NCBI GenBank assembly: GCA_016180195.1
Contig: JACPBS010000004.1
Location: forward strand, 17,485 to 81,484
Origin: Candidatus Woesearchaeota archaeon
Lineage (GTDB): Archaea > Nanobdellota > Nanobdellia > Woesearchaeales > UBA10216
Length of the DNA: 64,000 nucleotides
Direction: 5' to 3'
Shown one piece after another: positions 14,485 to 30,319 of the stretch. Numbering within the stretch: position 1 is the first letter of the stretch; the number at the start of each line of letters is the position of its first letter. A program made the position numbers and the translations under genes. A model generated the notes under the pieces. That model did not search any database, was not told the origin of the DNA, and worked only from the letters and a program-made list of their open reading frames with translations.

Positions 14485-14988
14485 ATGATATCATTCAGGA
14501 AAGCCAACCAAGGGGATGCAAGGGCAATATGCAGCCTGATTTCCTCTTACCAGTTCAACAGAGATGGAACTGGAAGCCTTATCAGCATGCATGAGGCAGG
14601 GATTGTTGCTGTGATTGGGCAAAGCGGTGTTTTTGTTGTTGCTGAAAATGGAGAAGGTATAGTTGGTTGTTGTTCAATAGTTGAATATCCTATCAACGGA
14701 GAACGGTCTGCAGAAGTAAGGTCTCTTTCAGTTAGGAAGGAGTTCCAGTTGCAGGGTATTGGCAGTAAACTTGTGGGTTTATGCAAAGTTGAGGCTGAAA
14801 GTATGGGTATATCTGCTTTATACGCTCTGGTTCAACCTGAAAGACTCGAATTTTTCACAAAGCAGGGATTTGACCATGTTTATTTTCCCCAAGAAAAGAT
14901 CTGGAGGGATTGCTATAGGTGCCCTCGATATGGAAACAATTGCAACGAAATTCCTTTGGTCAATATAAATGGGGTGAATCAGAAATGA
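14485..14988 (+). CDS. GNAT N-acetyltransferase with C-terminal Cys cluster; possible short-form amino-acid (glutamate) N-acetyltransferase given arg context
   Basis: 167 aa. Motif A QLQGIGSKLV. C-terminal CYRCPRYGNNC. Stop overlaps argG start (ATGA). Confidence 0.55.
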   Translation: MISFRKANQGDARAICSLISSYQFNRDGTGSLISMHEAGIVAVIGQSGVFVVAENGEGIVGCCSIVEYPINGERSAEVRSLSVRKEFQLQGIGSKLVGLCKVEAESMGISALYALVQPERLEFFTKQGFDHVYFPQEKIWRDCYRCPRYGNNCNEIPLVNINGVNQK

Positions 14989-16229
14989 ATGATTACAAGA
15001 AGGTTGCATCTTTTGAAGCGGAAAAAGGCAAGGTAAAGAAGGTTGTGCTGCTTTATTCGGGCGGCCTTGACACTTCTGTGATGCTCAAGTGGATTCAGGA
15101 TGAGTATAAAGCAGAAGTTATAGCACTTACTGTTGACCTTGGCCAGCAGGCTGAGGATTTGAATGCAATACGGGAGAAGGCTTTGAAGCTTGGTGCGAAA
15201 AAAGCTCATGTTATTGATGCCAAGGACGAATTTGCAGATAGCTATATTGCTAAAGGAATTAAGGCAAATTCTTCTTATCAGGGCGCATATCACCTTGCAA
15301 CTGCAATTGGCAGGCCTTTGCTTGCAAAGATTGCTGTTGAGATTGCTGAAAAGGAAGGGGCAGACACAATTGCGCATGGCTGCACAGGAAAGGGCAACGA
15401 CCAGGTAAGGATTGATGCAACTGCAATCACTTTGAACCCGAAAATCAAGATACTTGCACCTGTCAGGGAATGGGCTATGGGAAGGGATGAGGAGATTGAA
15501 TATGCAAAAAAGAACAACATCCCCGTTCCAGTTACTAAGGAAAAGCCTTACAGCTATGATGAGAACATGTGGGGCTCAAGCGCAGAATCCGGGGAGATTG
15601 AGGAGCCTGATGTGATTCCTCCACTAAACAAGATCTTGAAGATTTGCAATCTTCCTGAAAATGCTCCGGACAGCCCTGAGTACGTTAAGCTGGGTTTTGA
15701 AAAGGGGATTCCCGTCTTGCTGAATGGGAAAAAAATGAAGCTTTCACTGCTTATTGATGCGTTGGCTAGGATCGGTGCAAACCATGGCATCGGGATCAGC
15801 TACCATATTGAGGACCGTGTTGTTGGCCTGAAAAACCGTGACCTGTATGAAATGCCTTCTGCAACAATAATAATTGCAGCCCATAAAAATCTGGAGAAAT
15901 ACGTCTGCACAAGGCAGGAAAACGAGTTCAAGACCCTTGTTGATGAGAAATGGGCCTATCTTTGCTATGGCGGGTTATGGCTTGAGCCTTTGATGAATGA
16001 ATTGAATGCTTTCTGTGACAAGGTTAATGAAAAGGTGAATGGAACGGTGACTGTGAAGCTCTTCAAGGGCAAGGTTGACGTTGTTGCTATTGAGTCTGAT
16101 TTCGCATTGTACGACAAGAAGCTGGTCACTTTCATGAAAGACCGCACATTCAACCAGAATGCAAGTGCAGGATTCATTGAGCTCTGGAGCCTTCAGATGA
16201 AGCTGGCAAACCAGGTGAAGAAGAAATGA
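14985..16229 (+). CDS. argG: Argininosuccinate synthase
   Basis: Start taken at internal ATG 14985 (MNDYKKVASFEAEKGKVKKVVLLYSGGLDTSV: PP-loop SGGLDTS). Conserved argG blocks throughout. Confidence 0.9.
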   Translation: MNDYKKVASFEAEKGKVKKVVLLYSGGLDTSVMLKWIQDEYKAEVIALTVDLGQQAEDLNAIREKALKLGAKKAHVIDAKDEFADSYIAKGIKANSSYQGAYHLATAIGRPLLAKIAVEIAEKEGADTIAHGCTGKGNDQVRIDATAITLNPKIKILAPVREWAMGRDEEIEYAKKNNIPVPVTKEKPYSYDENMWGSSAESGEIEEPDVIPPLNKILKICNLPENAPDSPEYVKLGFEKGIPVLLNGKKMKLSLLIDALARIGANHGIGISYHIEDRVVGLKNRDLYEMPSATIIIAAHKNLEKYVCTRQENEFKTLVDEKWAYLCYGGLWLEPLMNELNAFCDKVNEKVNGTVTVKLFKGKVDVVAIESDFALYDKKLVTFMKDRTFNQNASAGFIELWSLQMKLANQVKKK

Positions 16230-16522: not shown

Positions 16523-16572
16523 AGGGATAGATTTATATCGGCAACTGTTAAGGAAGGAAAAGGTGATTCGCT

Positions 16573-17745
16573 ATCAAGCTTTGGAAAAAGGAAGGGCCTG
16601 ATATCAACAGGGAGATTGAGAAGTTCTGTGTTGGGAACGAGCACTTAATAGATCAAAAGCTGGTGAAATATGACTGCATTGCCAGCATTGCTCACGCAAG
16701 GATGCTTAACAAGATGGGGGTTTTGAGCAGCACCGAGCTAAGGCAGCTTATTTTTGCATTGGAGGAGATCATCAGTCTGGATAATGAAGGGAAATTTTCC
16801 ATAGCTATTGAGCAGGAGGACTGCCACACGGCAATTGAGAATTATCTTACTGGAAAGCTGGGGGATGCTGGAAAGAAGATCCATGCGTGCAGGTCAAGGA
16901 ATGATCAGGTTATTGCAGCATTAAGGCTTTATGAGAAGGAAGAGTTGAGAGAGGTTGGGAAACTTGTACGGAATTTAATTTCGGCAATTACGAACTTTAG
17001 CAGCCGAAACTCAGGGATTCCACTCCCAGGCTACACTCATTTGAGGAAGGCGATGCCTTATTCTATTGGAAGGTGGGCTGAGTCATTCTCAGAGTCTTTG
17101 CAGGATGATATCTTGCTGCTGGATTCTGTTTCAATGCTGATCGATCAGAATCCCTTAGGCAGTGCTGCTGGCTTCGGGGTTCCAATTTTTAAAGTTGACA
17201 GGGAATTCACTGCAAGGCAGCTTAAGTTTGGCAGGGTTCAAAAGAACACTCTGTACGTTCAGAATAGCAGGGGAAAGTTTGAGCTTGCAATTTTGGATGC
17301 CCTCAATCAAGTAATGCTGGATATTAACAAGCTTGCCACAGATATGTGGCTCTTTACTTCTGCAGAATTTGGGTTTATTGAGCTTCCCAAGGAATTCTCA
17401 ATGGGCAGTTCGATAATGCCCCAGAAAGTAAATCCCGACGTGGTTGAGCTTCTGAGGGCAAAGGCAGGCGTGATGAAAGGGCATAGGGACAGCATCAATA
17501 GCATGATCCTGAACCTTCCTTCAGGATATAACGGCGATTTCAAGCTCACAAAGCAGCCTTTGATTGAGGGGTTTGAGCTGGCAAAGTCCTGCATCAGCAT
17601 AATGACTTTGGTGATCGGGGGCTTGAAGGTGAACGAGGGAAGATGCAAGGCCGCAATGACGCCTGAATTGTTTGCAACTGAAAAGGCTCTGGAGCTTGTT
17701 AAGAAGGGAGTTCCTTTTAGGGATGCTTACAGGAAAATGGGTTAG
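16573..17745 (+). CDS. argH: Argininosuccinate lyase; conserved N-terminus lacks a canonical start codon
   Basis: ORF track begins at GTG 16663, but the in-frame upstream translation IKLWKKEGPDINREIEKFCVGNEHLIDQKLVKYDCIASIAHARML matches the ArgH N-terminus (MKLWGGRF...SIAHA.ML). Signature HACRSRNDQVIAALRL is present. An in-frame TGA sits at 16564, and the only codon at the Met position is ATC (16573). Confidence 0.8.
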   Translation: MKLWKKEGPDINREIEKFCVGNEHLIDQKLVKYDCIASIAHARMLNKMGVLSSTELRQLIFALEEIISLDNEGKFSIAIEQEDCHTAIENYLTGKLGDAGKKIHACRSRNDQVIAALRLYEKEELREVGKLVRNLISAITNFSSRNSGIPLPGYTHLRKAMPYSIGRWAESFSESLQDDILLLDSVSMLIDQNPLGSAAGFGVPIFKVDREFTARQLKFGRVQKNTLYVQNSRGKFELAILDALNQVMLDINKLATDMWLFTSAEFGFIELPKEFSMGSSIMPQKVNPDVVELLRAKAGVMKGHRDSINSMILNLPSGYNGDFKLTKQPLIEGFELAKSCISIMTLVIGGLKVNEGRCKAAMTPELFATEKALELVKKGVPFRDAYRKMG

Positions 17746-20533: not shown

Positions 20534-21463
20534 TTGATGGGTTTCAAAAACAGGGACATTATTTCTATAAGGGACTTTTCCAAGGCAGAGTTGTTGCACG
20601 TGCTTGATGTCGCGGCGGATATCGAGAGGAACGGAACAGGCTCTTTTTCGCAGCTGCTGAAGGGTAAAATCCTGGCCTCCCTTTTTTTTGAGCCTTCGAC
20701 AAGGACGCGGCTTAGTTTTGAGGCTTCAATGCACCGCTTGGGGGGAAGCGTTATCGGGTTTTCTGAGCCGGAGACAACATCTATCGTTAAAGGTGAGACT
20801 GCTCATGACACCATCAGGATTGTTGATGGTTATTGTGATATAATGGTAATGAGGCATCCTGAGTCAGGTTCTGCGACAAAAGCCGCCGAAGCAGCAAAAA
20901 ATCCTGTGATTAACGCGGGCGACGGTGCTAATGAGCACCCTACCCAGACATTTGTTGACCTGTATACGATTAGAAAAACAAAAGGTAGCCTTGAAAGGCT
21001 CAGTATAGGTTTCTTAGGGGATCTTAAGTATGGACGGACTGTTCACAGTCTTTCCCACGCACTGTCTCACTTCAGTCCTGATTTGTATTTCATTTCACCC
21101 GAATCATTGGCTCTGCCTGATAGGCTCATAAGGGAGCTTGAATCATCCAGGATCAAGATTGTGGAGGAGGAGAACCTTTCAAGGGTCAGTAGGCAGCTTG
21201 ACATACTTTATGTTACCCGTATCCAGAAGGAACGGTTCCTTGATGAGGGGGAGTATGCAAAGGTCAAGGGATTTTACAAGCTCGACAAGGAATTCCTGAA
21301 ATCTGCAAAGCCGGACTTGAAGATTCTCCATCCCCTTCCAAGGGTGGATGAGATCAATCCGCGTCTTGATTCAGAGAAGCAAAGCATTTACTTTGAGCAG
21401 GCACATAATGGAATCCCTGTAAGAATGGCCCTGCTTGGTTTGGTATTGGGCTGCTTCGAATAA
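20534..21463 (+). CDS. pyrB: Aspartate carbamoyltransferase catalytic subunit
   Basis: 309 aa. Has STRTR (FFEPSTRTRLSFE), HPTQ and HPLP motifs. Confidence 0.9.
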   Translation: MMGFKNRDIISIRDFSKAELLHVLDVAADIERNGTGSFSQLLKGKILASLFFEPSTRTRLSFEASMHRLGGSVIGFSEPETTSIVKGETAHDTIRIVDGYCDIMVMRHPESGSATKAAEAAKNPVINAGDGANEHPTQTFVDLYTIRKTKGSLERLSIGFLGDLKYGRTVHSLSHALSHFSPDLYFISPESLALPDRLIRELESSRIKIVEEENLSRVSRQLDILYVTRIQKERFLDEGEYAKVKGFYKLDKEFLKSAKPDLKILHPLPRVDEINPRLDSEKQSIYFEQAHNGIPVRMALLGLVLGCFE

Positions 21464-21502: not shown

Positions 21503-22567
21503 ATGGCTTATATTGAATTAGAGGACAAAACTAGGTTTGAAGGCTTCTCTTTTGGTGCAGATAACTCGGTTTCAGGCGAGGTAGTGTTCAACACTGGTAT
21601 GGTGGGATATCCGGAAAGCCTTACGGATCCCAGCTACAGGGGCCAGATTCTTGTTCTTACTTATCCTTTGGTTGGCAATTACGGTGTTCCCAGAAACGAT
21701 ATTGACCGGTTAGGAATTCCAAGGAATTTCGAGTCAGGAAAAATCCAGGTTAGCGGCCTTATTGCCGCGGATTATTCAGGCAACTATAGCCATTGGAACG
21801 CTGTGAAAAGCCTCTCGCAATGGCTGAATGAGGAAGGCATTCCTGCTTTGACCGGGATTGATACCCGTATGCTGACAAAGAAGCTTCGTGAAAAAGGGGT
21901 TATGCTTGGGAAGATCGTGAATTTCGGCGACGTGAAACTTGATGACCCTAATTTGAGGAATCTTGTGGATGAAGTTTCAGTTAGTGAAAAAATAACATAT
22001 AGCTGCGGCGGAAGAAAAAAAGTTCTTCTGGTTGACTGCGGCGCCAAGAACAACATAACAAGATGCCTGATAAAAAGAAACTGCGGGGTGATAAAAGTGC
22101 CCTGGGATTATGATTTTCTTGCGGATAAAGAGCTTGATTTCGACGGCATCGTGATAAGTAACGGCCCTGGAGACCCTAAGATGTGCAGGAAGACAATAAG
22201 AAATGTTTCAGCTGCGATGAAAAAGGAAATCCCGATATTCGGAATATGCCTTGGAAACCAGCTGCTTGCATTGGCAGCGGGCGGAGACACTTACAAGCTG
22301 AAGTACGGGCATAGGAGCCAGAACCAGCCATGCATAAATAAGGAGACCGGGCGCTGCTACATAACTTCGCAAAACCACGGGTTCGCTGTTGACATGAAAA
22401 CGATGCCATCTGGATGGGATGAATTTTTTGTGAATGGGAATGACGGAACAAACGAGGGAATGATGCATAAGGATAAGCCATTCATGTCTTGCCAGTTTCA
22501 CCCGGAAGCTTCCTGCGGTCCGGTTGATACGGAATTCCTTTTTGATGATTTTTTGAGGTTGCTATGA
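21503..22567 (+). CDS. carA: Carbamoyl-phosphate synthase small (glutaminase) subunit
   Basis: 354 aa. Type-1 glutamine amidotransferase catalytic Cys in GICLGNQLLALA. C-terminal HPE. Confidence 0.9.
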   Translation: MAYIELEDKTRFEGFSFGADNSVSGEVVFNTGMVGYPESLTDPSYRGQILVLTYPLVGNYGVPRNDIDRLGIPRNFESGKIQVSGLIAADYSGNYSHWNAVKSLSQWLNEEGIPALTGIDTRMLTKKLREKGVMLGKIVNFGDVKLDDPNLRNLVDEVSVSEKITYSCGGRKKVLLVDCGAKNNITRCLIKRNCGVIKVPWDYDFLADKELDFDGIVISNGPGDPKMCRKTIRNVSAAMKKEIPIFGICLGNQLLALAAGGDTYKLKYGHRSQNQPCINKETGRCYITSQNHGFAVDMKTMPSGWDEFFVNGNDGTNEGMMHKDKPFMSCQFHPEASCGPVDTEFLFDDFLRLL

Positions 22568-23337
22568 CAAGCATTGCGAGGCTTTACGAAAAGAACGCAT
22601 TTATGCTTCCACCAATGAAGAGTCTGATTAGGCAGAAAATAATGAAAGGCGACTTTGTTGTAGATGCAGGTTGTGGAACTGGAGTGTATTCCGATATTCT
22701 AAGGAAGAAAGTGGGAGAACGAGGCAAGCTACTTGCAGTTGACAGGGACAAATCAATGGTTCAGTATTGCAAAAAGAAGCATCCAGACGTCGAAACTAAG
22801 CAGTTGGAAATAGAAAAACTGTCAAGGATTGTTAAAAACGCGGATGTTGTTTTTGCGAGCCTCGTCCTTCAGTTTTCAAGGCCCGAAGCAATAGCTGAAA
22901 TTCGAAAGGTGCTTAAGAAAGGCGGGAAACTTATATTCTCAATACCTCTTTACAGGACGGGGATAAACATTGCTATTGACAAACAAACCAAAAATTTTAT
23001 GGATGAACTGATAAGCAGGATGAATGAACAGGCAAAAAACATCGGCTGCAATAAGAAGGTTGCAGTAGAATATTCAAACACCAGGGAACAGCAGTTAAGG
23101 AAACTTCTAAATAAGAGCAGGTTTCGGATTTTGGAGTGGGTTGTTGTTCCGGTTGAGAAATCTGATTTCAATTTCATGAAAGAGTATTATAAGATTCCCT
23201 GGAGAAGCAGGAAAATGCTGGATCTTCCGTTCAGGTTAAGGTACAAGATTATTACTGATGCAATGAAGCTTGCTTTCAAAAAATATCCCAAATTCATGAT
23301 AACCCGTTATTATTTGTTTGGAGTTGCCCAAAAATGA
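22564..23337 (+). CDS. Class I SAM-dependent methyltransferase (Methyltransf_11-like)
   Basis: 257 aa. Motif I VVDAGCGTGVYS. Inserted between carA and carB. Confidence 0.6.
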   Translation: MTSIARLYEKNAFMLPPMKSLIRQKIMKGDFVVDAGCGTGVYSDILRKKVGERGKLLAVDRDKSMVQYCKKKHPDVETKQLEIEKLSRIVKNADVVFASLVLQFSRPEAIAEIRKVLKKGGKLIFSIPLYRTGINIAIDKQTKNFMDELISRMNEQAKNIGCNKKVAVEYSNTREQQLRKLLNKSRFRILEWVVVPVEKSDFNFMKEYYKIPWRSRKMLDLPFRLRYKIITDAMKLAFKKYPKFMITRYYLFGVAQK

Positions 23338-23843
23338 GTGAGGAAATGATTGATGTTGTGGATGATGAAGATAATATTGTCGGGATAGCTGATAGGGGAA
23401 AAATAATTGAAAAGGGTTTAACCCACAGGACATCATTTGTCATAGTTCTTGATCATTTCAAGAGGTTCCTCATCCAGAAAAGGTCGAGTTCAAAGAAGAT
23501 ATTTCCTGGATGCCGGGATTTGGGTGCTGCGGAAACCGTGTCAAGCGGTGAGTCTTACGAGCATGCTGCAATAAGGGCTTTGGAAGAGGAGCTTGGGATA
23601 AAAGGGTATACTGTGAATGAATTAACTATGCTTTTCGAAGTGAGATTCAGGTCCCCTTCTTACAGAACAAATACGCGGGTTTTCAAGCTGATGTACACCG
23701 GCCGAATAAGTATCCAGACAGACGAGGTGGATGAAATAAGGAATGCAAGCTGTTCTGAAATAGACGATCTGATTTCCAAAGGTGTTTTTGCGCCTGATGG
23801 TGCATTGATATTCAAAAGGATCCAAAATGGAAGAATTGATTGA
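23334..23843 (+). CDS. Nudix hydrolase (paralog 1)
   Basis: 169 aa. Degenerate Nudix box GESYEHAAIRALEEELGI. Confidence 0.65.
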   Translation: MSEEMIDVVDDEDNIVGIADRGKIIEKGLTHRTSFVIVLDHFKRFLIQKRSSSKKIFPGCRDLGAAETVSSGESYEHAAIRALEEELGIKGYTVNELTMLFEVRFRSPSYRTNTRVFKLMYTGRISIQTDEVDEIRNASCSEIDDLISKGVFAPDGALIFKRIQNGRID

Positions 23844-23872
23844 TTTTGTGGATGAAATAGTTAAGCTTTCAG
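23827..23872 (+). pseudogene. Truncated 5' fragment of a third Nudix paralog, interrupted by repeat B1
   Basis: Encodes MEELIDFVDEIVKLSG, homologous to the N-termini MSEEMIDVVDDEDNIV and MEEMVDIVDEKDKV of the flanking Nudix genes. Overlaps the stop of Nudix 1 in operon fashion, then runs into the repeat at about 23873. Confidence 0.35.
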
Positions 23873-24100
23873 GTAACAAAAATCCGCCGCTCGGAGCTAT
23901 CCTCTCACTTCAATGGCGGATCCCAATTCGAACAGAGTTCAAATGGGCCAAATCACAAAGTGATTTGGGTTTTGGAACAATACACAAATTGAGCAAAGCT
24001 CAATTGTGCCCAATCGCAAAACGATTTGGGAATTTCGCCCTAAAGGGCGGAATTTCGCCCTAAAGGGCGGGGCTTTGAACCCAAGGCGAAATTTATTTGT
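23873..24100 (+). repeat. Hairpin-rich intergenic repeat, family B copy 1 (contains 20-bp tandem duplication 24031-24050 / 24051-24070)
   Basis: Palindromes ATCCGCC...GGCGGAT, CCAAATCACaaaGTGATTTGG, ATTGAGCaaaGCTCAAT, CCCAATCGcaaaaCGATTTGGG, CGCCCtaaaGGGCG. Shares a 28-nt block with 33623-33648 and a 30-nt block (inverted) with 39543-39572. Confidence 0.8.
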
Positions 24101-24160
24101 AAGGAGAATTTTACTCCCGATGGATTTTATTGAAAAATATTTTGGAAAAGGTGATGTGGA

Positions 24161-24655
24161 ATGGAGGAAATGGTTGACATAGTGGATGAGAAAGATAAGG
24201 TTATTAGTACCACAACAAAGAGGGAAATGGTTGAGAACGCGCTGCTTCACAGGGCGGCCAGGGTGGTATTGCTGAACAGCAAGGGAGAGGTTCTGGTCCA
24301 GAAGCGTTCTGAAAAGAAGAAAGTCTATCCGGGATGCTGGGATATTGGCGTTGCCGAAACCGTGCAGTCAGGCGAAAGCTTTGAGGAAGCCGCAACAAGG
24401 GGCTTGAACGAGGAGATGGGAGTCTCGGATGTTATCGGCGACTTCCTTTTCAAGACAAAATTCCTGTCAAAGGACAACAACGTCATCTACAAGGTTTTCG
24501 AGGCTTTTTATGACGGGGACGTGAAGGTTCAGGAGGAAGAGGTTGACGAGGCAAGGTTTGTGCCATTGGATGGTGCGATAAGCATTGCCAATCTGGAGAA
24601 ATTTTCGCCAACAGGGAAATTTATCCTGGATAAGTATGTTGAAATGAAAAGATGA
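24161..24655 (+). CDS. Nudix hydrolase (paralog 2)
   Basis: 164 aa. Nudix box GESFEEAATRGLNEEMGV (E-x7-R-x-U-x-EE-x-GU). Confidence 0.7.
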   Translation: MEEMVDIVDEKDKVISTTTKREMVENALLHRAARVVLLNSKGEVLVQKRSEKKKVYPGCWDIGVAETVQSGESFEEAATRGLNEEMGVSDVIGDFLFKTKFLSKDNNVIYKVFEAFYDGDVKVQEEEVDEARFVPLDGAISIANLEKFSPTGKFILDKYVEMKR

Positions 24656-27600
24656 CTTTAACAATTGGCCATAGGGGAGCTGGAAAACTGGAGCCTGAAA
24701 ATACCTTAAAGGCGATCAGGAAGGCAATCGAGCTCGGGCTGGACCAGGCTGAGATCGACTTGAGGCTGACAAAAGACGGCAGGCTTGTTGTTTTCCATGA
24801 CTACTCTACTGAAAGGATCAGTGCAAAAAAGATCATGTTGAGGGACCTTGATTTCTCAGAGCTGAAAAAAATCAAGCCAGACATCCCTTCTTTGGAGGAA
24901 GTCTTTGATGCGGCTGATGGAAAGGTAAGTCTGAGGATTGATGTCAAGGAGGACATCGCAGAGGAGCTTTGCCGATTTCTGAAGATGAATGGTTTTGAAG
25001 ATTGTGTTGTAATGTTCAGGAACGTGGACGAGCTGAGGAAAGTGAAAAAGCTTCTGCCGGGAATCGAGACAGCTTTCCTTGTTACGGATCCAAGCATAGA
25101 TCCAATAGCTGGAGCGAAGGAAGCGAATGCGGACGGGATCCATCTTGGAAGCAAATGCATTAGCAAGAAGGTAATTGATGCTGCAAGAACGGAAGGTTTG
25201 AGAATGGCTATAGGTGATTTTAGCACAGTTGGGGATATCAGGCAAGCGTTGGAATTCAACCCTGATTGCATCAGCAGCGAGAGGCCTGATTTGTTGGTCG
25301 GAATCATAAAGAATAAAAGAAATAAATTGAAGAAAATCTTGGTCATTGGTTCGGGTCCGATAAAAATCGGAGAAGCTGGGGAATTTGACTATTCTACTAG
25401 CCAGTGCCTAAAAGTTTTGAAGGAAGAGCACATTACTACCGTACTTGTCAATCCAAACATAGCCACCATCCAATCAGATAAGAAGATGGCGGACAAAATC
25501 TACTTCCTCCCGATTACTCCATACTTTGTTGAGAAAATTATCGAAAAAGAAAGGCCTGATGGAATCCTGCTTAGCTTCGGAGGGCAGACAGCGCTCAACT
25601 GCGGCGTGGCATTGCATGATTCAGGAATCCTTGAGAAATACTGCGTAAGTGTGCTGGGAACCCCTGTTGAAACGATAAATGCGACAGAGGACAGGGAGTT
25701 GTTCGTGCGGAAATTAAATGAAATAAGCCTGAAAACGCCAAAAAGCTTCGCTGTAAAAAGCGTGCAAAATGCAATCATCGCCGCAAGTAAGATAGGCTAC
25801 CCGTTAATCATCCGTTCCGCTTATGCTCTTGGCGGTTTGGGAAGTGCCATTTGCAGGAATGATGATGAGCTTGAGGAAGCGTCAAGGAAGGCTTTTGCAA
25901 GCGCTCCTCAGATCCTGGTTGAGGAATATCTTGAGCATTGGAAGGAAATAGAGTATGAGGTTGTCCGTGACAGATTTGATAACTGCATCACCGTTTGCAA
26001 CATGGAGAATTTTGACCCGATGGGCATCCATACTGGCGAGAGCATAGTAGTGGCGCCAAGCCAGACCCTGTCAAATTCCGAATACCATAAATTGAGGGAA
26101 ATTTCAATCAGGCTTATCAGGCATCTTGGCATAGTTGGTGAATGCAATGTGCAGTTTGCATTGGACAGGAACAGCGAGGATTACAGGATTATTGAGGTTA
26201 ATGCCCGCCTTTCAAGGAGCTCTGCCCTGGCCAGCAAGGCAACAGGCTACCCCCTTGCGTTTGTTGCTGCAAAGCTCGCCTTGGGCTATGGCCTTGCAGA
26301 GATAAATAACTCCATCACAAAATCAACAATTGCATGCTTTGAGCCGGCCTTGGATTATGTTGTCGTTAAGATCCCGCGGTGGGATTTGAAGAAATTCAGG
26401 AACGTGTCAAGGAGCATAGGGAGTTCCATGAAGTCAGTTGGAGAGGTTATGGCTATCGGGCGCAGATTTGAGGAGGCTTTGCAGAAGGCATTGAGGATGC
26501 TTGACATTGGTGCTTATGGTTTGGTCTGCAACGAGCCAGTATGTGCTGATCATGATATCGAGCACGAACTCGCAAATCCAACTGACGAGAGGATTTTCAC
26601 AGTGGTTGAGGCTATAAGGAAAGGTTACAGCCCTGAAAAAATAAGCAGTCTTTCAGGGATTGATTGCTGGTTCCTGGAAAAAATAAAGAACGTCGTTGAT
26701 CTTGAATCTGAATTGAGGCATTATAAGGATATTGCCTGTATCGGAAAGGAATTGCTGATGAGGGCAAAGCAGTTTGGATTTTCTGACAAGCAGCTATCCT
26801 TGATGTTTAATGTTGATTATACGGAAGTTATGAAAATCCGTGAATCAATGGGGATCAAGCCAGTTGTAAGGCAGATTGACACATTGGCAGCCGAATACCC
26901 TGCAAAAACTAATTATCTGTACCTTACCTATAATGGAGGTGAGGATGACATTGATTTCACAGGAAAAAGGAAAAAGATCATTGTTCTTGGATCAGGAGTT
27001 TACAGGATCGGGAGTTCTGTTGAGTTTGACTGGTGCTGCGTGAATGCGGTTTTTACACTAAGGGATCTGGGGTATGAGACGATTATGGTTAACTACAACC
27101 CCGAAACAGTCAGCACTGATTATGATGTCTGTGACAAGCTGTATTTTGATGAGATCTCTTTTGAGGCCGTGGTTGAGGTTTGCAGGAAGGAAAACCCGTT
27201 TGGCGTTATTATATCAATGGGCGGGCAGATCCCGAACAACATCGCGGTTAAGCTGCACAAGGCAGGGGTGAATGTTTTGGGGACGAGCCCTCAAAGCATT
27301 GACATGGCAGAGGATAGGCACAAGTTCTCTAAGCTTCTTGACGAGCTCGGGATAGATCAGCCAAAATGGAAGGAACTCACGGATTTTTCTGAGGCAAGGC
27401 TGTTTGCGAACAGGGTCGGGTATCCGGTTCTTGTCAGGCCTTCTTATGTCCTCAGCGGTGCTGCCATGAATGTGGCTTTCAATGATGATGACCTAGAGAC
27501 TTACCTTACAAGGGCTTCAAGGGTAAATCTTGACTATCCTGTGGTCATAAGCAAGTTCATGGTGAACTCAAAGGAAATTGAAATTGATGCTGTCGCAAGG

Positions 27601-28518
27601 CAGGGTATTATTGTTTCAGAGGCGATTTCTGAGCACGTTGAAAACGCGGGGGTCCATTCAGGGGATGCAACCATGATTTTTCCAGCAGTGAGGCTTTATC
27701 CTGAGACAGTTGAAAAGGTGAGGAGGATATCTTCGACTGTTGCTTCCAGTCTTAATATTTCTGGTCCATTCAATATCCAGTTCCTTGCAAAGGATAATGA
27801 GGTGATGGTGATTGAATGCAATCTGAGGGCCTCAAGAAGCTTTCCATTTGTTTCCAAGGTGAAGATGAATAACCTGATAGAGACCGCTACAAGGGCTATA
27901 GTCGGGGCTGATGTGGACCATGAAAAGCCAAAGGAAATACGTTATGTGGGGATTAAATCCCCGCAGTTCTCTTTTTCAAGGCTTTTGGGAGCAGACCCTG
28001 TTCTTTCGGTGGAGATGGCCTCAACCGGGGAAGTTGCTTGCCTGGGCTCTGATGTTTATGATGCATTCCTGAAGGCCATCCTGGCTGCAGGGTTTAAGAT
28101 GCCTAGAAAGAACATTCTCCTCAGCATCGGCGGGGATGAGAACAAGCAGAAATTTATCCCTTATGCCCGGAAGCTCGTGGAAAAGGGGTATTCGATTTTT
28201 GCAACTGACAATACTTCGAAAATGCTAGATGAAAGCGATATAGCAAATGTGCTGCTTCATAAGATCCATGAGGGAAAGTCGCCGAATATAAGCGAATATC
28301 TCACGAATGAGAAGCTGGACACGGTTATAAATATACCAAGCGGCTCTGGCAATAATACCAAAAGGAAGGCAAGGGACGGCTATATAATAAGGCGTGCTGC
28401 CGCAGACTTCGGCATTCCGTTAATAACAAATATTCAGCTTGCAATGCTGCTTGTTGATGCCTTGTGTTCCCTGAAGATTGATGCGCTTGATATCAGGGCA
28501 TGGGATGAATATAATTAA
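24652..28518 (+). CDS. carB: Carbamoyl-phosphate synthase large subunit with an in-frame N-terminal glycerophosphodiester phosphodiesterase (GDPD) domain
   Basis: 1288 aa continuous ORF. Residues 1-215 carry GDPD motifs (IGHRGAG, ENTLKA, EIDLRLTKDG, VVFHD, C-terminal GIISERPDLL). From LKKILVIGSGPIKIGEAGEFDYS onward it is canonical CarB with two ATP-grasp halves and an MGS-like C-terminal domain. An in-frame TTG at 25327 could give stand-alone CarB (MKKILVIGSGP). Confidence 0.85.
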   Translation: MTLTIGHRGAGKLEPENTLKAIRKAIELGLDQAEIDLRLTKDGRLVVFHDYSTERISAKKIMLRDLDFSELKKIKPDIPSLEEVFDAADGKVSLRIDVKEDIAEELCRFLKMNGFEDCVVMFRNVDELRKVKKLLPGIETAFLVTDPSIDPIAGAKEANADGIHLGSKCISKKVIDAARTEGLRMAIGDFSTVGDIRQALEFNPDCISSERPDLLVGIIKNKRNKLKKILVIGSGPIKIGEAGEFDYSTSQCLKVLKEEHITTVLVNPNIATIQSDKKMADKIYFLPITPYFVEKIIEKERPDGILLSFGGQTALNCGVALHDSGILEKYCVSVLGTPVETINATEDRELFVRKLNEISLKTPKSFAVKSVQNAIIAASKIGYPLIIRSAYALGGLGSAICRNDDELEEASRKAFASAPQILVEEYLEHWKEIEYEVVRDRFDNCITVCNMENFDPMGIHTGESIVVAPSQTLSNSEYHKLREISIRLIRHLGIVGECNVQFALDRNSEDYRIIEVNARLSRSSALASKATGYPLAFVAAKLALGYGLAEINNSITKSTIACFEPALDYVVVKIPRWDLKKFRNVSRSIGSSMKSVGEVMAIGRRFEEALQKALRMLDIGAYGLVCNEPVCADHDIEHELANPTDERIFTVVEAIRKGYSPEKISSLSGIDCWFLEKIKNVVDLESELRHYKDIACIGKELLMRAKQFGFSDKQLSLMFNVDYTEVMKIRESMGIKPVVRQIDTLAAEYPAKTNYLYLTYNGGEDDIDFTGKRKKIIVLGSGVYRIGSSVEFDWCCVNAVFTLRDLGYETIMVNYNPETVSTDYDVCDKLYFDEISFEAVVEVCRKENPFGVIISMGGQIPNNIAVKLHKAGVNVLGTSPQSIDMAEDRHKFSKLLDELGIDQPKWKELTDFSEARLFANRVGYPVLVRPSYVLSGAAMNVAFNDDDLETYLTRASRVNLDYPVVISKFMVNSKEIEIDAVARQGIIVSEAISEHVENAGVHSGDATMIFPAVRLYPETVEKVRRISSTVASSLNISGPFNIQFLAKDNEVMVIECNLRASRSFPFVSKVKMNNLIETATRAIVGADVDHEKPKEIRYVGIKSPQFSFSRLLGADPVLSVEMASTGEVACLGSDVYDAFLKAILAAGFKMPRKNILLSIGGDENKQKFIPYARKLVEKGYSIFATDNTSKMLDESDIANVLLHKIHEGKSPNISEYLTNEKLDTVINIPSGSGNNTKRKARDGYIIRRAAADFGIPLITNIQLAMLLVDALCSLKIDALDIRAWDEYN

Positions 28519-28595: not shown

Positions 28596-29516
28596 ATGGC
28601 TAATGTTGATATCAGGACTAACATACTGAATATAGAGCTAAAGAACCCGACTATCTTGGCATCAGGGATCATGGGCGTATCAGGATCCTCATGTGTTTAC
28701 GCGGCAAGGAATGGCGCTGGTGCTGTTATACCCAAATCCATAGGGCCTTCTGAAAGGCAGGGCCACAGCAATCCCATAATTACGCAGTTCGAATCAGGTT
28801 TTCTTAATGCAGTCGGTCTTCCAAATGCAGGAGTGGACAGCAGCCTTGATGAGATAAGGTTTGCAATGGATAATGCAGGTGTTCATGTATTTCCAAGCTT
28901 TTTCGGCGGAACAAAAGAGGAATTCGGGTTGGTTGCAGAGAAAATTTCAGCCTTGAATCCCCCGCTTATGGAGGTTAACCTTTCCTGCCCGAATACTGCT
29001 GATGATTTCGGGATTTCATTTGCATTGTCAGAGAATGACGCGCATGACGTAATTAGCATTGTGAAGTCAAGGACAAAGATTCCTGTAATTGCAAAGCTCG
29101 CCCCGAATGTCCCTGATATAAGGCGCATTGCAAGGGCTGTTGAGGAGGCTGGAGCTGATGCAATAACCGCTGTCAACACAATGCCGGGCATGATTATTGA
29201 TGTTAAGGCTGCTAAGCCAATCCTTTACAACAAGTGTGGGGGCATTAGCGGTCCTGCCTTGAAGCCTGTTGCAGTGAAGTGCATTTATGATGTCTTTGAA
29301 TCAGTTAATATCCCTGTGATTGGCGTTGGCGGCGTTAAATCAGGAGAGGATGCTGCTGAGATGATTATGGCAGGCGCGGTTGCTGTCGAGATAGGCTCTG
29401 GGATTTATTACAGGGGCATTGACGTATTCAGGAAGGTAAGTGATGAGCTTCGAATGTTCATGGAAGAGAACGGCTATGATAAAATCAAAGATATGGTCGG
29501 GGTTGCGCATAAATGA
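28596..29516 (+). CDS. pyrD: Dihydroorotate dehydrogenase catalytic subunit (class 1B)
   Basis: 306 aa. FMN/substrate motifs (NAVGLPN, LSCPN, GVGGV). Confidence 0.85.
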   Translation: MANVDIRTNILNIELKNPTILASGIMGVSGSSCVYAARNGAGAVIPKSIGPSERQGHSNPIITQFESGFLNAVGLPNAGVDSSLDEIRFAMDNAGVHVFPSFFGGTKEEFGLVAEKISALNPPLMEVNLSCPNTADDFGISFALSENDAHDVISIVKSRTKIPVIAKLAPNVPDIRRIARAVEEAGADAITAVNTMPGMIIDVKAAKPILYNKCGGISGPALKPVAVKCIYDVFESVNIPVIGVGGVKSGEDAAEMIMAGAVAVEIGSGIYYRGIDVFRKVSDELRMFMEENGYDKIKDMVGVAHK

Positions 29517-30319
29517 AGATGGAAAAGCCAGTTATTTATAGGATAAAAAGGACTGTTGACGAGGCTGAATGCATAAAATCATTTTTTTTCAGCGGCAAAA
29601 TTAATTACAGGCCCGGCCAGTTTGTGATGGTATGGATTCCGGGCGTGGATGAGAAGCCTTTTGCTGTAAGCTATCTTTCAGGAGATGAATTTGGAATAAC
29701 CGTTGCTGAGGTTGGGAATTTTTCTGGAAATCTATGCAGGCTCAAGGCTGGCGACATGATTGGTATAAGGGGTCCTTATGGAAAGGGTTACAATCTTGAT
29801 GGCGAGTTGAGAAGCATTGCTGTTGTTTCTGGAGGTCACGGCGCTGCTTCGCTCATGACGCTTGCTGAGGAGGCGGTCAGGAAAGGAATCATGGTCAGAT
29901 TCATCCTGGGGGCAAGGTCGAAGGATAAGCTGCTTTACATGCAGCGGCTTGTTGATCTTGTTGGCAGGGAGAATCTTATTATCACCACTGATGACGGCAG
30001 CATGGGCGCCAGAGGGTTCGTTACAGAAGCCCTTAAGCAGGTCATCAGTGATGGAAGGATTGGCATGATCTTTGCCTGCGGCCCTGAAAAGATGCTTAAG
30101 GCAGTTGCAGAAATGGGTGTTCAGAATAAGATTAAGGGAGAGCTTAGCATGGAGCGATACATGAAGTGCGGATTCGGCATTTGCGGGCATTGCTGCGTTG
30201 ACACTACCGGGATTAGGGTTTGCGTTGAGGGTCCTGTTCTGGATTTTGAGTCGGCTTTGAAGATTAAGGAGTTCGGGACTTATAGGAGGACCATATCAAG
30301 CAGGAAGGAGAAGATCTAG
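29513..30319 (+). CDS. pyrK: Dihydroorotate dehydrogenase electron-transfer subunit
   Basis: 268 aa. FAD/NAD-binding ferredoxin-reductase fold and C-terminal 2Fe-2S Cys cluster CGFGICGHCCV. Confidence 0.8.
   Translation: MKMEKPVIYRIKRTVDEAECIKSFFFSGKINYRPGQFVMVWIPGVDEKPFAVSYLSGDEFGITVAEVGNFSGNLCRLKAGDMIGIRGPYGKGYNLDGELRSIAVVSGGHGAASLMTLAEEAVRKGIMVRFILGARSKDKLLYMQRLVDLVGRENLIITTDDGSMGARGFVTEALKQVISDGRIGMIFACGPEKMLKAVAEMGVQNKIKGELSMERYMKCGFGICGHCCVDTTGIRVCVEGPVLDFESALKIKEFGTYRRTISSRKEKI

What the first reader, a model, noticed from the sequence alone, without database searches (positions are those of the whole stretch)
24652..25400. Glycerophosphodiester phosphodiesterase domain translationally fused (no stop codon) to the N-terminus of CarB
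The ORF beginning at ATG 24652 encodes a complete GDPD domain, with HRG, ENT, E-D and HD motifs and the C-terminal ERPDLL block. It continues without a stop into the canonical CarB start [22 protein letters not shown], giving 1288 aa against roughly 1050-1070 for typical CarB. An in-frame TTG at 25327 could still initiate a normal [11 protein letters not shown] CarB, so the locus may make both a fusion and a stand-alone enzyme. A GDPD-CarB fusion is not a known architecture. The GDPD start overlaps the stop of the upstream Nudix gene (ATGA), so it is read as part of the same transcript.
Basis: seen in the sequence. Interest (0 to 1): 0.6.

Follow-up and report, generated by a model that had tools for sequence, protein, structure and literature searches.

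The report
Real GDPD–CarB fusion gene in Woesearchaeota
In this uncultured Woesearchaeota archaeon, a small phosphodiesterase gene has lost its stop codon and merged in frame with the large subunit of carbamoyl-phosphate synthetase, and a second related genome has the same merger, so it is a real and previously undescribed fusion of two operon neighbours, not an error.

Summary
ORF 24652..28518 (+) encodes 1288 aa: a complete GDPD domain (aa 1-220, catalytic residues intact) followed directly by a full-length CarB (aa 221-1288).

A second MAG from a different WGS project carries the same fusion (1284 aa, 78% identity) in the same carA-Nudix-Nudix-GDPD::carB context. Its junction sequence differs and has no start codon ahead of CarB. 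A sequencing error is therefore very unlikely.

NCBI annotates the window gene as a 1104-aa CarB starting at Met185, inside the GDPD domain, so the fusion is hidden in the public record.

In nine related loci, carA and carB are separated by a variable set of Nudix, GDPD, methyltransferase and HAD genes joined by ATGA stop/start overlaps. The same GDPD subfamily is fused to a downstream Nudix gene in other relatives. GDPD signatures suggest the two CarB fusions arose independently.

Best reading: a neighbour-gene fusion made as one bifunctional polypeptide, with no evidence yet of a mechanistic link to CarB. Nothing supports a separate start at TTG 25327.

In passing: relatives without the fusion carry a homing-endonuclease-like ORF between GDPD and carB, and 19-38-nt inserts in the carB 5' end that fit archaeal bulge-helix-bulge introns.

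The parts
21503..22567 (+). carA, the glutamine amidotransferase small subunit and obligatory partner of CarB. It is encoded separately, 2 kb upstream.
   Evidence: Pfam CPSase_sm_chain plus GATase. The same position is occupied in L005, L006, L008, L009, L010, L012 and L013.
22564..23337 (+). Class I SAM-dependent methyltransferase, a member of the gene set lying between carA and carB.
   Evidence: Pfam Methyltransf_31/11/25. No specific NCBIfam equivalog reaches its cut-off. Homologous genes occupy this position in L008 and L010.
23334..23843 (+). Nudix hydrolase 1, of the YfcD/IDI-like type.
   Evidence: Pfam NUDIX E 2.5e-11. Best NCBIfam match is YfcD at 87 bits, below its cut-off of 152.
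24161..24655 (+). Nudix hydrolase 2, of the YfcD/IDI-like type. Its TGA overlaps the fusion gene's ATG as ATGA.
   Evidence: Pfam NUDIX E 2.4e-18. A GGTGA Shine-Dalgarno motif precedes its start, -9.5 kcal/mol.
24652..28518 (+). The whole GDPD::CarB fusion ORF, 1288 aa plus the stop codon.
   Evidence: The homologous 1284-aa fusion is P0122, at L005 10001-13855.
24652..25311 (+). GDPD domain, aa 1-220, a UgpQ-like TIM-barrel phosphodiesterase. Catalytic and metal-binding residues H7, R8, E34, D36, H49 and K99 are present. The third metal ligand is Asp97 instead of Glu.
   Evidence: Pfam PF03009. Full-length alignment to PDB 2pz0, E 2e-22. Invariant columns in the alignment of 10 GDPDs. dN/dS 0.13-0.21.
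25312..25335 (+). Junction NKRNKLKK, aa 221-228. The end of the GDPD C-terminal helix runs directly into the basic N-terminal leader of CarB. It contains the in-frame TTG at 25327 (Leu226). There is no stop, no ATG or GTG, and no Shine-Dalgarno motif.
   Evidence: The CarB models begin to match at aa 221-222. Stand-alone GDPDs end 5-10 residues after RPDLL.
25312..28515 (+). CarB portion, aa 221-1288. It has two ATP-grasp halves, an oligomerisation domain and an MGS-like allosteric domain. It is uninterrupted.
   Evidence: TIGR01369 1519 bits and PRK05294 1329 bits. Pfam domains.
28596..30319 (+). pyrD (28596..29516) and pyrK (29513..30319), downstream consumers in the pyrimidine pathway.
   Evidence: Pfam DHO_dh, DHODB_Fe-S_bind and NAD_binding_1.

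Best explanation
The locus encodes one bifunctional polypeptide of about 143 kDa.

**How it is made (inferred).** Translation starts at ATG 24652, coupled to the upstream Nudix gene through an ATGA overlap. It runs through a catalytically intact UgpQ-like glycerophosphodiester phosphodiesterase domain (aa 1-220). With essentially no linker it continues into a complete CarB, which works with the separately encoded CarA (21503..22567). The carbamoyl phosphate would feed the arginine genes upstream and the pyrimidine genes downstream.

**How it arose (inferred).** GDPD was the gene immediately upstream of carB in a tightly packed operon. The ancestral GDPD stop and carB start overlapped as ATGA, the state still visible in relative L001. 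A small frame-restoring indel, such as loss of TG, removes both the stop and the start and joins the two reading frames.

**What the fusion most likely means (inferred).** It fixes co-expression of two operon neighbours. It is probably not a new catalytic mechanism. The GDPD domain probably acts with the neighbouring Nudix hydrolases on a phosphodiester or nucleotide-diphosphate metabolite.

**What is shown.** The open reading frame, both intact domains, conservation of the fusion in a second genome, and the conserved gene set between carA and carB. The translation product, the enzymatic activities and any functional coupling are not shown.
For: **The gene itself**
- A single ORF with full-length GDPD and CarB matches.

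**The second example**
- P0122 (GCA_053533055.1, contig JAIYNU010000012.1) is 1284 aa, 78% identical over 100% of the query, and has PF03009 plus all CarB domains.
- It sits in the same carA-Nudix-Nudix-fusion context, with the same ATGA overlap to the upstream Nudix gene.
- Its junction...ERPDLFARQKPKKILVLGSG, has no ATG, GTG or TTG before the KK. CarB there can only be made as the fusion, or badly truncated.

**Independence of the two records**
- The window protein is MBI2133116.1, on a 170,554-bp contig. That is a different project from JAIYNU.
- Synonymous sites between the two fusions are saturated (pS 0.72-0.77).

**The GDPD domain is functional-looking**
- It is under purifying selection (pN 0.16-0.20; dN/dS 0.13-0.21 where it can be calculated).
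- Its catalytic residues are invariant across 10 homologues.

**Operon context**
- Nine related loci have Nudix, GDPD, methyltransferase or HAD genes between carA and carB, usually with 4-nt overlaps.

**Neighbour fusions recur in this group**
- GDPD::Nudix occurs in P0390 (67% identical to the window GDPD) and in P0244.
- A Nudix-Nudix fusion occurs in L013.

**The N-terminus of CarB tolerates fusions**
- Many long proteins have the CarB N-terminal homology starting at residue 370-740. This is consistent with the CAD/CPS1-type GATase-CPSase fusions known from eukaryotes (established knowledge).

**No sign of an internal start**
- There is no Shine-Dalgarno pairing at TTG 25327 (-0.1 kcal/mol). 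The median for window genes is -3.0, and 31% of them reach -6 or lower.
Against: - There are no expression, proteomic or read-level data. Both examples are metagenome-assembled genomes.
- Only two genomes carry the fusion. The closest relative by CarB identity (L001, 83%) has a stand-alone GDPD with a stop codon.
- Only about a third of genes in the window use a Shine-Dalgarno motif. Its absence at TTG 25327 therefore does not exclude internal initiation.
- ATG 24652 itself also lacks a Shine-Dalgarno motif (-1.5 kcal/mol).
- The third metal ligand is Asp97 instead of the usual Glu. P0122 and P0390 have HH in place of HD. GDPD activity is therefore assumed, not demonstrated.
- No biochemical logic connects glycerophosphodiester hydrolysis to carbamoyl-phosphate synthesis.
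Confidence: 0.75

Rival explanations
1. Two products. Besides the read-through fusion, a stand-alone CarB ([11 protein letters not shown]...) is initiated internally at TTG 25327, from the same mRNA or from an internal promoter, and this is the physiologically relevant CPSase subunit.
For: - TTG 25327 is in frame, and it lies where CarB models start to match (aa 221-222 of the fusion).
- Most window genes lack a Shine-Dalgarno motif, so initiation without one is common here.
- The A/T-rich Lys codons upstream could mimic an archaeal TATA box (inference).
Against: - There is no Shine-Dalgarno pairing (-0.1 kcal/mol).
- The A/T-rich stretch lies at -23 to -8 from the TTG, too close for a leaderless transcript starting at that codon (inference).
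- In L001 the homologous TTG is the third codon (MSL...) of the old carB frame, not its start.
- L005 has no ATG, GTG or TTG ahead of KKILVLG, yet keeps the gene under strong purifying selection (CarB dN/dS about 0.06). The fusion form must therefore be functional at least in that genome.
- Even if the TTG is used, the GDPD frame still has no stop, so the fusion is made as well.
Confidence: 0.2
2. Assembly or sequencing artefact. A 1-nt indel in the A-rich stretch 25305-25326 falsely joins a normal GDPD gene to a normal carB that starts at TTG 25327.
For: - The junction is A-rich: aaagaataaaagaaataaa.
- Both alternative frames hit TAA within five codons of the end of the GDPD domain, so one indel would give two ordinary-looking genes (own reading).
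Against: - An independent MAG from another project has the same fusion with a different, non-homopolymeric junction and no possible carB start.
- The hypothetical carB start would be a TTG without a Shine-Dalgarno motif. Relatives with separate carB genes use GGAGG/GGTGA plus ATG or GTG.
Confidence: 0.03
3. The public annotation is right. The gene is a CarB starting at Met185 (1104 aa, MBI2133116.1), and the upstream 184 codons are a decaying GDPD pseudogene remnant.
For: NCBI's pipeline called the gene this way.
Against: - The frame is open from ATG 24652, which overlaps the upstream gene's stop.
- The Pfam GDPD match is full length, 1-243 of 244.
- The catalytic residues are invariant and dN/dS is 0.13-0.21.
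- Met185 lies inside the seventh or eighth beta/alpha unit of the barrel, and no known CarB has that 41-aa leader.
- The gene call for P0122 in the collection includes the GDPD domain.
Confidence: 0.03

Closest known systems
CAD / CPS1 / URA2-type carbamoyl-phosphate synthetases (GATase domain fused N-terminally to the CarB-like synthetase)
   Same: An enzyme domain from the same operon or pathway is joined to the N-terminus of the CarB synthetase through a very short linker. This shows that the CarB N-terminus tolerates fusions. Long proteins whose CarB N-terminal homology starts at residue 370-740 appear.
   Different: Here the fused partner is a GDPD phosphodiesterase with no known role in carbamoyl-phosphate synthesis. 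CarA stays a separate gene 2 kb upstream. The fusion is limited to two MAGs.
Stand-alone cytosolic UgpQ-like GDPDs (e.g. PDB 2pz0, 4oec, 1o1z, 1v8e)
   Same: The domain length is the same (about 225-250 aa). The catalytic residues correspond to H7, R8, E34, D36, H49 and K99 in window numbering. The alignment to 2pz0 is full length, E 2e-22.
   Different: There is no stop codon, so the C-terminal helix continues into CarB. Asp replaces the third metal-binding Glu. The domain scores far below the cut-offs of all NCBIfam GDPD equivalogs (65 against 264 for PRK09454), so its substrate cannot be assigned.
GDPD::Nudix fusions in related uncultured archaea (P0390, 397 aa; P0244)
   Same: P0390 belongs to the same GDPD subfamily (67% identity to the window domain; P0244 is only 39% identical). 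In both, the GDPD lies at the N-terminus, its stop is lost, and it is joined without a linker to whichever gene lies downstream in the carA-carB gene set.
   Different: The downstream partner is the Nudix hydrolase, not CarB.
Unfused arrangement in relatives (L001, L006/L007: GDPD - endonuclease-like ORF - carB; L009, L010, L013: GDPD - Nudix - ... - carB)
   Same: The operon and the orthologous genes are the same. The GDPD stop overlaps the next start as ATGA.
   Different: GDPD ends with its own stop. In L001 and L006 a 464/480-aa homing-endonuclease-like ORF separates it from carB, and the carB 5' end carries short intron-like inserts that are absent from the window.

Membership tests
CarB, carbamoyl-phosphate synthase large subunit (TIGR01369 / PRK05294) | Full-length match above the curated cut-off | tested here: met
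   TIGR01369 scores 1519 bits against a cut-off of 1027, model positions 2-1051 of 1052. PRK05294 scores 1329 bits against 599.
CarB, carbamoyl-phosphate synthase large subunit (TIGR01369 / PRK05294) | Duplicated preATP-grasp plus ATP-grasp halves, an oligomerisation domain and a C-terminal MGS-like allosteric domain | tested here: met
   Pfam CPSase_L_D1 (2 stretches), CPSase_L_D2 (2 stretches), CPSase_L_D3 at aa 639-716 and MGS at aa 1168-1259.
CarB, carbamoyl-phosphate synthase large subunit (TIGR01369 / PRK05294) | Partner CarA encoded in the genome or locus | tested here: met
   carA at 21503..22567, with CPSase_sm_chain plus GATase.
CarB, carbamoyl-phosphate synthase large subunit (TIGR01369 / PRK05294) | ATP- and bicarbonate-dependent carbamoyl-phosphate synthesis | not testable with these tools
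   Needs an enzyme assay of the recombinant fusion together with CarA.
GDPD / GP-PDE family (Pfam PF03009) | Domain match above the gathering threshold, over the full length | tested here: met
   90.3 bits against 23.6, profile positions 1-243 of 244, aa 7-213.
GDPD / GP-PDE family (Pfam PF03009) | Catalytic His-Arg, the second catalytic His, and the Glu/Asp/Glu metal ligands plus Lys | tested here: inconclusive
   H7, R8, E34, D36, H49 and K99 are present and invariant in 10 homologues. The third metal ligand, Glu in 2pz0 and most homologues, is Asp97 in the window, L001, L005 and P0390. This is conservative, but its effect is unknown.
GDPD / GP-PDE family (Pfam PF03009) | Assignment to a characterised subfamily (UgpQ, GlpQ or lysophospholipase D equivalogs) | tested here: not met
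   The best hit, PRK09454, scores 65 bits against a cut-off of 264, and only the N-terminal 70 residues match. The substrate is therefore unknown.
Genuine translational gene fusion (single polypeptide) | No in-frame stop and no frame change between the two domains | tested here: met
Genuine translational gene fusion (single polypeptide) | The fusion is conserved in an independent, diverged genome | tested here: met
   P0122 / L005: 78% identity, saturated synonymous sites, a different junction sequence, and a different WGS project.
Genuine translational gene fusion (single polypeptide) | The fusion polypeptide is detected, by a junction peptide or by full-length size | not testable with these tools
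   No proteomic or transcriptomic data are available.
Archaeal bulge-helix-bulge (BHB) introns (side observation in relatives, not in the window) | A 4-bp central helix flanked on each strand by a 3-nt bulge, with cleavage between bulge nucleotides 2 and 3 (rule as stated in PMC2738675) | tested here: met
   At the GE|FDYSG site, L001, L013, L006 and L009 read [GGCG][AG|A][GUGC]-loop-[GCAC][CGCC][UA|U or AU|U]. The predicted cuts fall on the exon borders deduced from the protein. In-silico splicing restores the CarB N-terminus in six loci. At the GSGAL|KIG site, and in L008 and L012, the central helix is 3 bp plus a G.A pair.
Archaeal bulge-helix-bulge (BHB) introns (side observation in relatives, not in the window) | Outer flanking helix (strict hBHBh' form) | tested here: inconclusive
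   The inner helix is always present. The outer helix is displaced by internal loops, as in the relaxed HBh'-like form (manual inspection).
Archaeal bulge-helix-bulge (BHB) introns (side observation in relatives, not in the window) | Spliced mRNA or cleavage by the splicing endonuclease demonstrated | not testable with these tools
   Needs cDNA or metatranscriptome reads, or an in-vitro EndA assay.

The most novel reading that the evidence does not exclude
The fusion is a Rosetta-stone signal. On this reading the GDPD domain, together with the YfcD/IDI-like Nudix hydrolases and the methyltransferase always wedged between carA and carB in these Woesearchaeota, forms a functional module with carbamoyl-phosphate synthetase. 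It might couple turnover of a scavenged glycerophosphodiester or nucleotide-diphosphate metabolite to arginine and pyrimidine synthesis, or regulate CPSase. The fusion would then have been selected twice independently, in the window lineage and in the L005 lineage, for that reason.
Probability: 0.15. Interest if true: 0.6.

Novelty: new variant of a known kind. Interest (0 to 1): 0.4.

Why it matters
- **The public record hides the fusion.** The annotation (MBI2133116.1) starts CarB inside the GDPD barrel, so the domain architecture cannot be seen there. The gene model should be corrected.
- **It links a conserved, unexplained gene set to CPSase.** Nudix, GDPD and methyltransferase genes sit between carA and carB in host-dependent DPANN archaea. 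The fusions GDPD::CarB, GDPD::Nudix and Nudix::Nudix are the only functional hint available for these genes.
- **It is a clean natural example of fusion from an ATGA overlap.** A single small indel turns ATGA-overlapped operon neighbours into a multidomain protein, apparently twice for the same gene pair.
- **It shows CarB function survives an unrelated N-terminal domain.** A 25-kDa domain joined with no linker is tolerated, which is useful for engineering.
- **The comparison turned up what may be the more important lead.** Relatives carry intron-like inserts that fit the BHB rule, plus a homing-endonuclease-like ORF, at the 5' end of carB. In the papers I searched, archaeal pre-mRNA splicing is documented only for cbf5.

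Tried and rejected
**Searches that gave nothing useful**
- Scans of genome contigs and metagenome contigs with the GDPD domain returned only unrelated GDPDs: Niallia at 27% identity, and Ga0181388 at 34% next to a MutS-like gene. This lineage is not in those collections.
- Exact look-ups of the 1288-aa protein and of P0121 found no contig on record.
- Rfam found nothing in the window. It found nothing relevant in L001 or L006, so the inserts in relatives are not recognisable group I or II introns or known ribozymes.
- ARAGORN found no tRNA in the window.

**A caveat about the word-indexed protein search**
- It did not return P0122 when queried with the GDPD domain alone or with aa 1-300, although P0122 is 70% identical there.
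- Absence of further fusions in those two searches is therefore weak evidence.
- The exhaustive HMMER search of 1.84 billion representatives also found no protein spanning both parts. However, clusters at 50% identity could hide fusions behind an unfused CarB representative.

**Candidates checked and dismissed**
- Short CarB fragments with 40-70-aa N-terminal extensions (P0268, P0274, P0302, P0312, P0341 and others) were checked as possible fusion fragments. They are over-extended ORF calls with no GDPD similarity.

**Alternative explanations for the inserts in relatives**
- Programmed frameshifting or ribosomal bypass was considered and rejected.
- Insert lengths are 38, 36, 35 and 34 nt at one site and 20, 20, 23, 19, 32 and 29 nt at the other. 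They follow no consistent rule modulo 3.
- The inserts contain in-frame stops, and there are no matching take-off and landing codons.

**Other**
- The idea that the N-terminus of the endonuclease-like ORF is a degenerate copy of the CarB N-terminus remains only suggestive. MAFFT did not align it convincingly.
- Structure prediction was not run. The tool returns no inter-domain confidence, and the sequence evidence for both folds is already unambiguous.
Full report
**1. The observation**

The window contains a single ORF, 24652..28518 (+), starting with ATG and encoding 1288 aa.
- Pfam places a full-length GDPD domain at aa 7-213: profile positions 1-243 of 244, E 2.7e-25, 90 bits against a cut-off of 23.6.
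- All CarB domains follow: two preATP-grasp/ATP-grasp halves, the oligomerisation domain and the MGS-like domain.
- NCBIfam TIGR01369 matches aa 222-1270 to model positions 2-1051 of 1052, at 1519 bits against a cut-off of 1027.
- The sequence reads ...[46 protein letters not shown]... with no stop.
- TTG 25327 is in-frame codon 226.
- ATG 24652 overlaps the TGA of the upstream Nudix gene as ATGA.

Every factual element of the finding is correct.

**2. Source and public annotation**

The CarB part is 100% identical to GenBank protein MBI2133116.1. That record is named 'carbamoyl-phosphate synthase large subunit [Candidatus Woesearchaeota archaeon]', is 1104 aa long, and lies on a 170,554-bp contig. 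The model starts at Met185 of the ORF (MAIGDFSTVGD...), inside the GDPD barrel. The fusion is therefore hidden in the public record.

**3. Is it real?**

The decisive result is a second example.
- P0122 is 1284 aa, 78% identical over 100% of the query, and has PF03009 plus all CarB domains.
- It lies on JAIYNU010000012.1 (GCA_053533055.1), in the context carA-Nudix-Nudix-GDPD::carB-...-pyrD-pyrK. It has the same ATGA overlap with the upstream Nudix gene.
- Its junction is different and shorter...ERPDLFARQKPKKILVLGSGAITIGQAGEFDF. At the DNA level there is no ATG, GTG or TTG before the KK. CarB can only be made there as a fusion.
- Synonymous sites between the two genomes are saturated (pS 0.72-0.77). 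Non-synonymous divergence is low: CarB dN/dS is about 0.06. For the GDPD domain pN is 0.16-0.20 and dN/dS is 0.13-0.21 where it can be calculated.

Two diverged genomes from different WGS projects keep the joint frame open and both domains under purifying selection. An indel artefact is very unlikely.

**4. The GDPD domain**

- The best solved relative is 2pz0. The alignment is full length, E 2e-22.
- In an alignment of ten homologues, H7, R8, E14, N17, E34, D36, H49 and K99 are invariant.
- The third metal ligand, Glu in 2pz0 and most homologues, is Asp97 in the window, L001, L005 and P0390.
- No NCBIfam GDPD equivalog is reached (65 bits against 264), so the substrate is unknown.

**5. Operon context**

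- Upstream lie argG (14919..16229), argH (about 16573..17745), a carbamoyltransferase (20534..21463), carA, a methyltransferase and two YfcD/IDI-like Nudix genes.
- Downstream lie pyrD, pyrK and a dihydroorotase-like amidohydrolase.
- In nine related loci, carA and carB are always separated by a variable set of methyltransferase, Nudix (1-3 copies), GDPD or HAD genes, mostly joined by 4-nt overlaps:
  - L005: Nudix-Nudix-GDPD::carB.
  - L001 and L006: Nudix-GDPD-X-carB.
  - L009: GDPD-Nudix-carB.
  - L010: MT-Nudix-GDPD-Nudix-Nudix-carB.
  - L008: MT-Nudix-carB.
  - L012: Nudix-Nudix-carB.
  - L013: Nudix::Nudix-GDPD-Nudix-HAD-carB.

The association of GDPD with carB is therefore old and operon-based. 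The fusion occurs where GDPD happens to be the immediate upstream neighbour.

**6. Fusions recur in this gene set**

- P0390 (397 aa, complete ORF on L011) has a GDPD 67% identical to the window's. It is joined without a linker to a Nudix domain: ...MPDLLVTLIKFRENHEEFVDVVDESD..., where HEEFVDVVDE corresponds to the usual Nudix N-terminus MEEMVDIVDE.
- P0244 has the same architecture.
- L013 has a Nudix-Nudix fusion.

With an ATGA overlap the downstream frame is offset by one nucleotide. Loss of TG, or an equivalent indel, removes the stop and the start and joins the frames in one step (inference).

**7. One origin or two?**

- Shared derived characters in the GDPD alignment group the window with L001: FHDYSTER and a 4-residue deletion before IP.
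- They group L005 with P0390: FHHESTDGIS and the xEPIP insertion.
- Each CarB-fused GDPD thus has a sister that is not fused to CarB.
- The two junctions also differ in structure. The window keeps the whole GDPD C-terminal helix and joins the 'LKKILV' form of the CarB N-terminus. That form resembles L001's GDPD end plus the start of its ORF X (KIISKGKK* / MSLRKI...).
- L005 has a shortened helix joined to the 'KPKKILV' form, which resembles L001's present carB start (MNVEKPKKVLLL).

Two independent fusions are the more parsimonious reading (inference, moderate confidence). CarB identities (83, 80 and 83%) do not resolve the three genomes.

**8. One product or two?**

- Pairing to the anti-Shine-Dalgarno sequence is -0.1 kcal/mol upstream of TTG 25327 and -1.5 upstream of ATG 24652.
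- 31% of 55 window ORFs reach -6 or lower, against 12% of background positions.
- A Shine-Dalgarno motif is therefore not obligatory here, and internal initiation cannot be excluded. Nothing positively supports it, and L005 lacks any equivalent start.
- I put the probability of a substantial stand-alone CarB in the window organism at about 0.2. Even then, the fusion is still made.

**9. How common is it?**

- An exhaustive HMMER search with aa 1-300 against 1.84 billion cluster representatives found no protein matching both parts. Apart from the stand-alone GDPD P0001, the best hit scored 142 bits, and every hit covers either aa 1-226 or aa 221-300.
- Among the best 120 CarB homologues, only P0122 carries PF03009.
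- No paper in the library mentions such a fusion.
- Caveats are listed under Tried and rejected.

**10. Mechanism and meaning**

- *Shown:* one ORF, two intact domains, conservation in a second genome, and conserved operon neighbours.
- *Inferred:* translation from ATG 24652 coupled to the Nudix gene; a bifunctional protein of about 143 kDa that binds CarA; GDPD activity on an unknown phosphodiester, probably in concert with the Nudix enzymes; an origin by loss of an ATGA overlap.

CarB N-terminal fusions are tolerated in CAD/CPS1-type enzymes (established knowledge, consistent). I see no biochemical reason for channelling between the two activities. The most likely meaning is fixed co-expression of operon neighbours. 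Repeated, apparently independent fusion leaves some room (about 0.15) for a real functional link.

**11. Side observation in relatives (not in the window)**

*The inserted ORF.* In L001 and L006/L007 the GDPD has its own stop. A 464/480-aa ORF then follows.
- The two ORFs share a conserved N-terminal stretch of about 50 aa.
- Their middles differ: LAGLIDADG_3 in L001, three HNH_repeat units in L006.
- Both read in frame into the first 17 codons of carB.

*The short inserts.* In L001, L013, L006 and L009 the carB 5' end is interrupted twice: after GSGAL (34-38 nt) and after KIGEAGE (19-23 nt). In L008 and L012 it is interrupted once, at the second site, by unrelated inserts of 32 and 29 nt.
- Flanking codons differ at synonymous positions, so the exons are under coding constraint.
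- Every insert fits the BHB rule, for example [GGCG][AG|A][GUGC]-loop-[GCAC][CGCC][UA|U]. The predicted cuts, between bulge nucleotides 2 and 3 (rule quoted from PMC2738675), fall exactly on the exon borders.
- In-silico splicing restores ...[19 protein letters not shown]... in all six loci.
- The literature found here documents archaeal pre-mRNA splicing only for cbf5 (PMC2738675; reference list of PMC12397907).

This is a lead, not a proven result. The window, L005 and L010 have uninterrupted carB 5' ends.

**12. Verdict**

The finding is real and correctly interpreted. It is a new domain architecture, a new variant of a known kind (CPSase large subunit with an N-terminally fused enzyme domain). 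It most likely arose by fusion of operon neighbours. Interest is moderate at 0.4. It is not mechanistically surprising, but it corrects a public annotation and points to an unexplained conserved gene set. It also led to a potentially more novel intron and homing-endonuclease phenomenon in sister lineages.

Noticed in passing
L001 2393-2430 and 2454-2473; L013 3888-3922 and 3946-3964; L006 10167-10202 and 10226-10245 (same in L007); L009 5792-5825 and 5849-5871; L008 5867-5898; L012 3786-3814: The carB 5' ends of six related Woesearchaeota loci are interrupted by inserts of 19-38 nt that carry stop codons or shift the frame. There are two fixed sites, GSGAL|KIG and GE|FDYSG. All inserts fit the archaeal bulge-helix-bulge rule, and the predicted cuts fall exactly on the exon borders. 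In-silico splicing restores the CarB N-terminus. They may be new archaeal mRNA introns; only cbf5 is documented in the literature found. The window's carB has none.
   Followed up: partly
L001 1009-2403; L006 8735-10177; L007 4415-5857: A 464/480-aa homing-endonuclease-like ORF lies between GDPD and carB. It has a LAGLIDADG_3 domain in L001 and three HNH_repeat units in L006. Its start overlaps the GDPD stop as ATGA, and it reads in frame into the first 17 carB codons. The first 50 or so residues, and blocks of the underlying DNA, are conserved between the two, although the middle domains are unrelated. The N-terminus (..RKICENFGSS..AGIEF..FDAYS..AHAELL) may be a degenerate copy of the CarB N-terminus, but this is not established.
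   Followed up: partly
window 24652-25204 (codons 1-184 of the fusion ORF): The public GenBank model for this gene (MBI2133116.1, 1104 aa) starts at Met185, inside the GDPD domain. The first 184 codons are therefore left unannotated and the fusion is hidden.
   Followed up: yes
window 23826-24160: The 318-nt gap between the two Nudix genes is not empty. It opens with a 40-nt copy (78% identical) of the start of Nudix gene 2, translating as MEELIDFVDE. It contains two 46-nt repeats (23924-23969 and 23985-24030). It also has an exact 20-nt tandem duplication, GGAATTTCGCCCTAAAGGGC x2 (24029-24068), with a palindromic core. It looks like a decayed third Nudix paralogue overwritten by small repeats. 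In L005 the two Nudix genes abut.
   Followed up: partly
window 16562-16680 (start of argH): Homology to ArgH of L005 and L006 begins at about 16576, 29 codons upstream of the first canonical start (GTG 16663). The open frame there has no ATG, GTG or TTG. A GGTGA Shine-Dalgarno motif (16562-16566) is followed 6 nt later by ATC (16573), at the position of the relatives' Met-Ala-Lys-Leu-Trp. This suggests either a non-canonical ATC start or an N-terminally truncated ArgH.
   Followed up: partly
L011 106-1299 (P0390); P0244; L013 830-1855: There are other fusions among genes of the carA-carB gene set. GDPD::Nudix occurs in P0390 (397 aa) and in P0244 (489 aa, whose tail looks unrelated or chimeric). 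A Nudix::Nudix fusion of 341 aa occurs in L013.
   Followed up: partly
P0204 (1216-aa CarB homologue): This CarB homologue contains several exact internal tandem duplications of 40-50 residues, for example [47 protein letters not shown] twice. This is most likely an assembly artefact in that contig.
   Followed up: no
window 18114-19481 (+) and 19485-20402 (-): Two sizeable ORFs (455 and 305 aa) lie between argH and the carbamoyltransferase gene and have no Pfam match at E <= 1e-5. The 455-aa protein has a Pro/Ser/Thr-rich N-terminal region.
   Followed up: no
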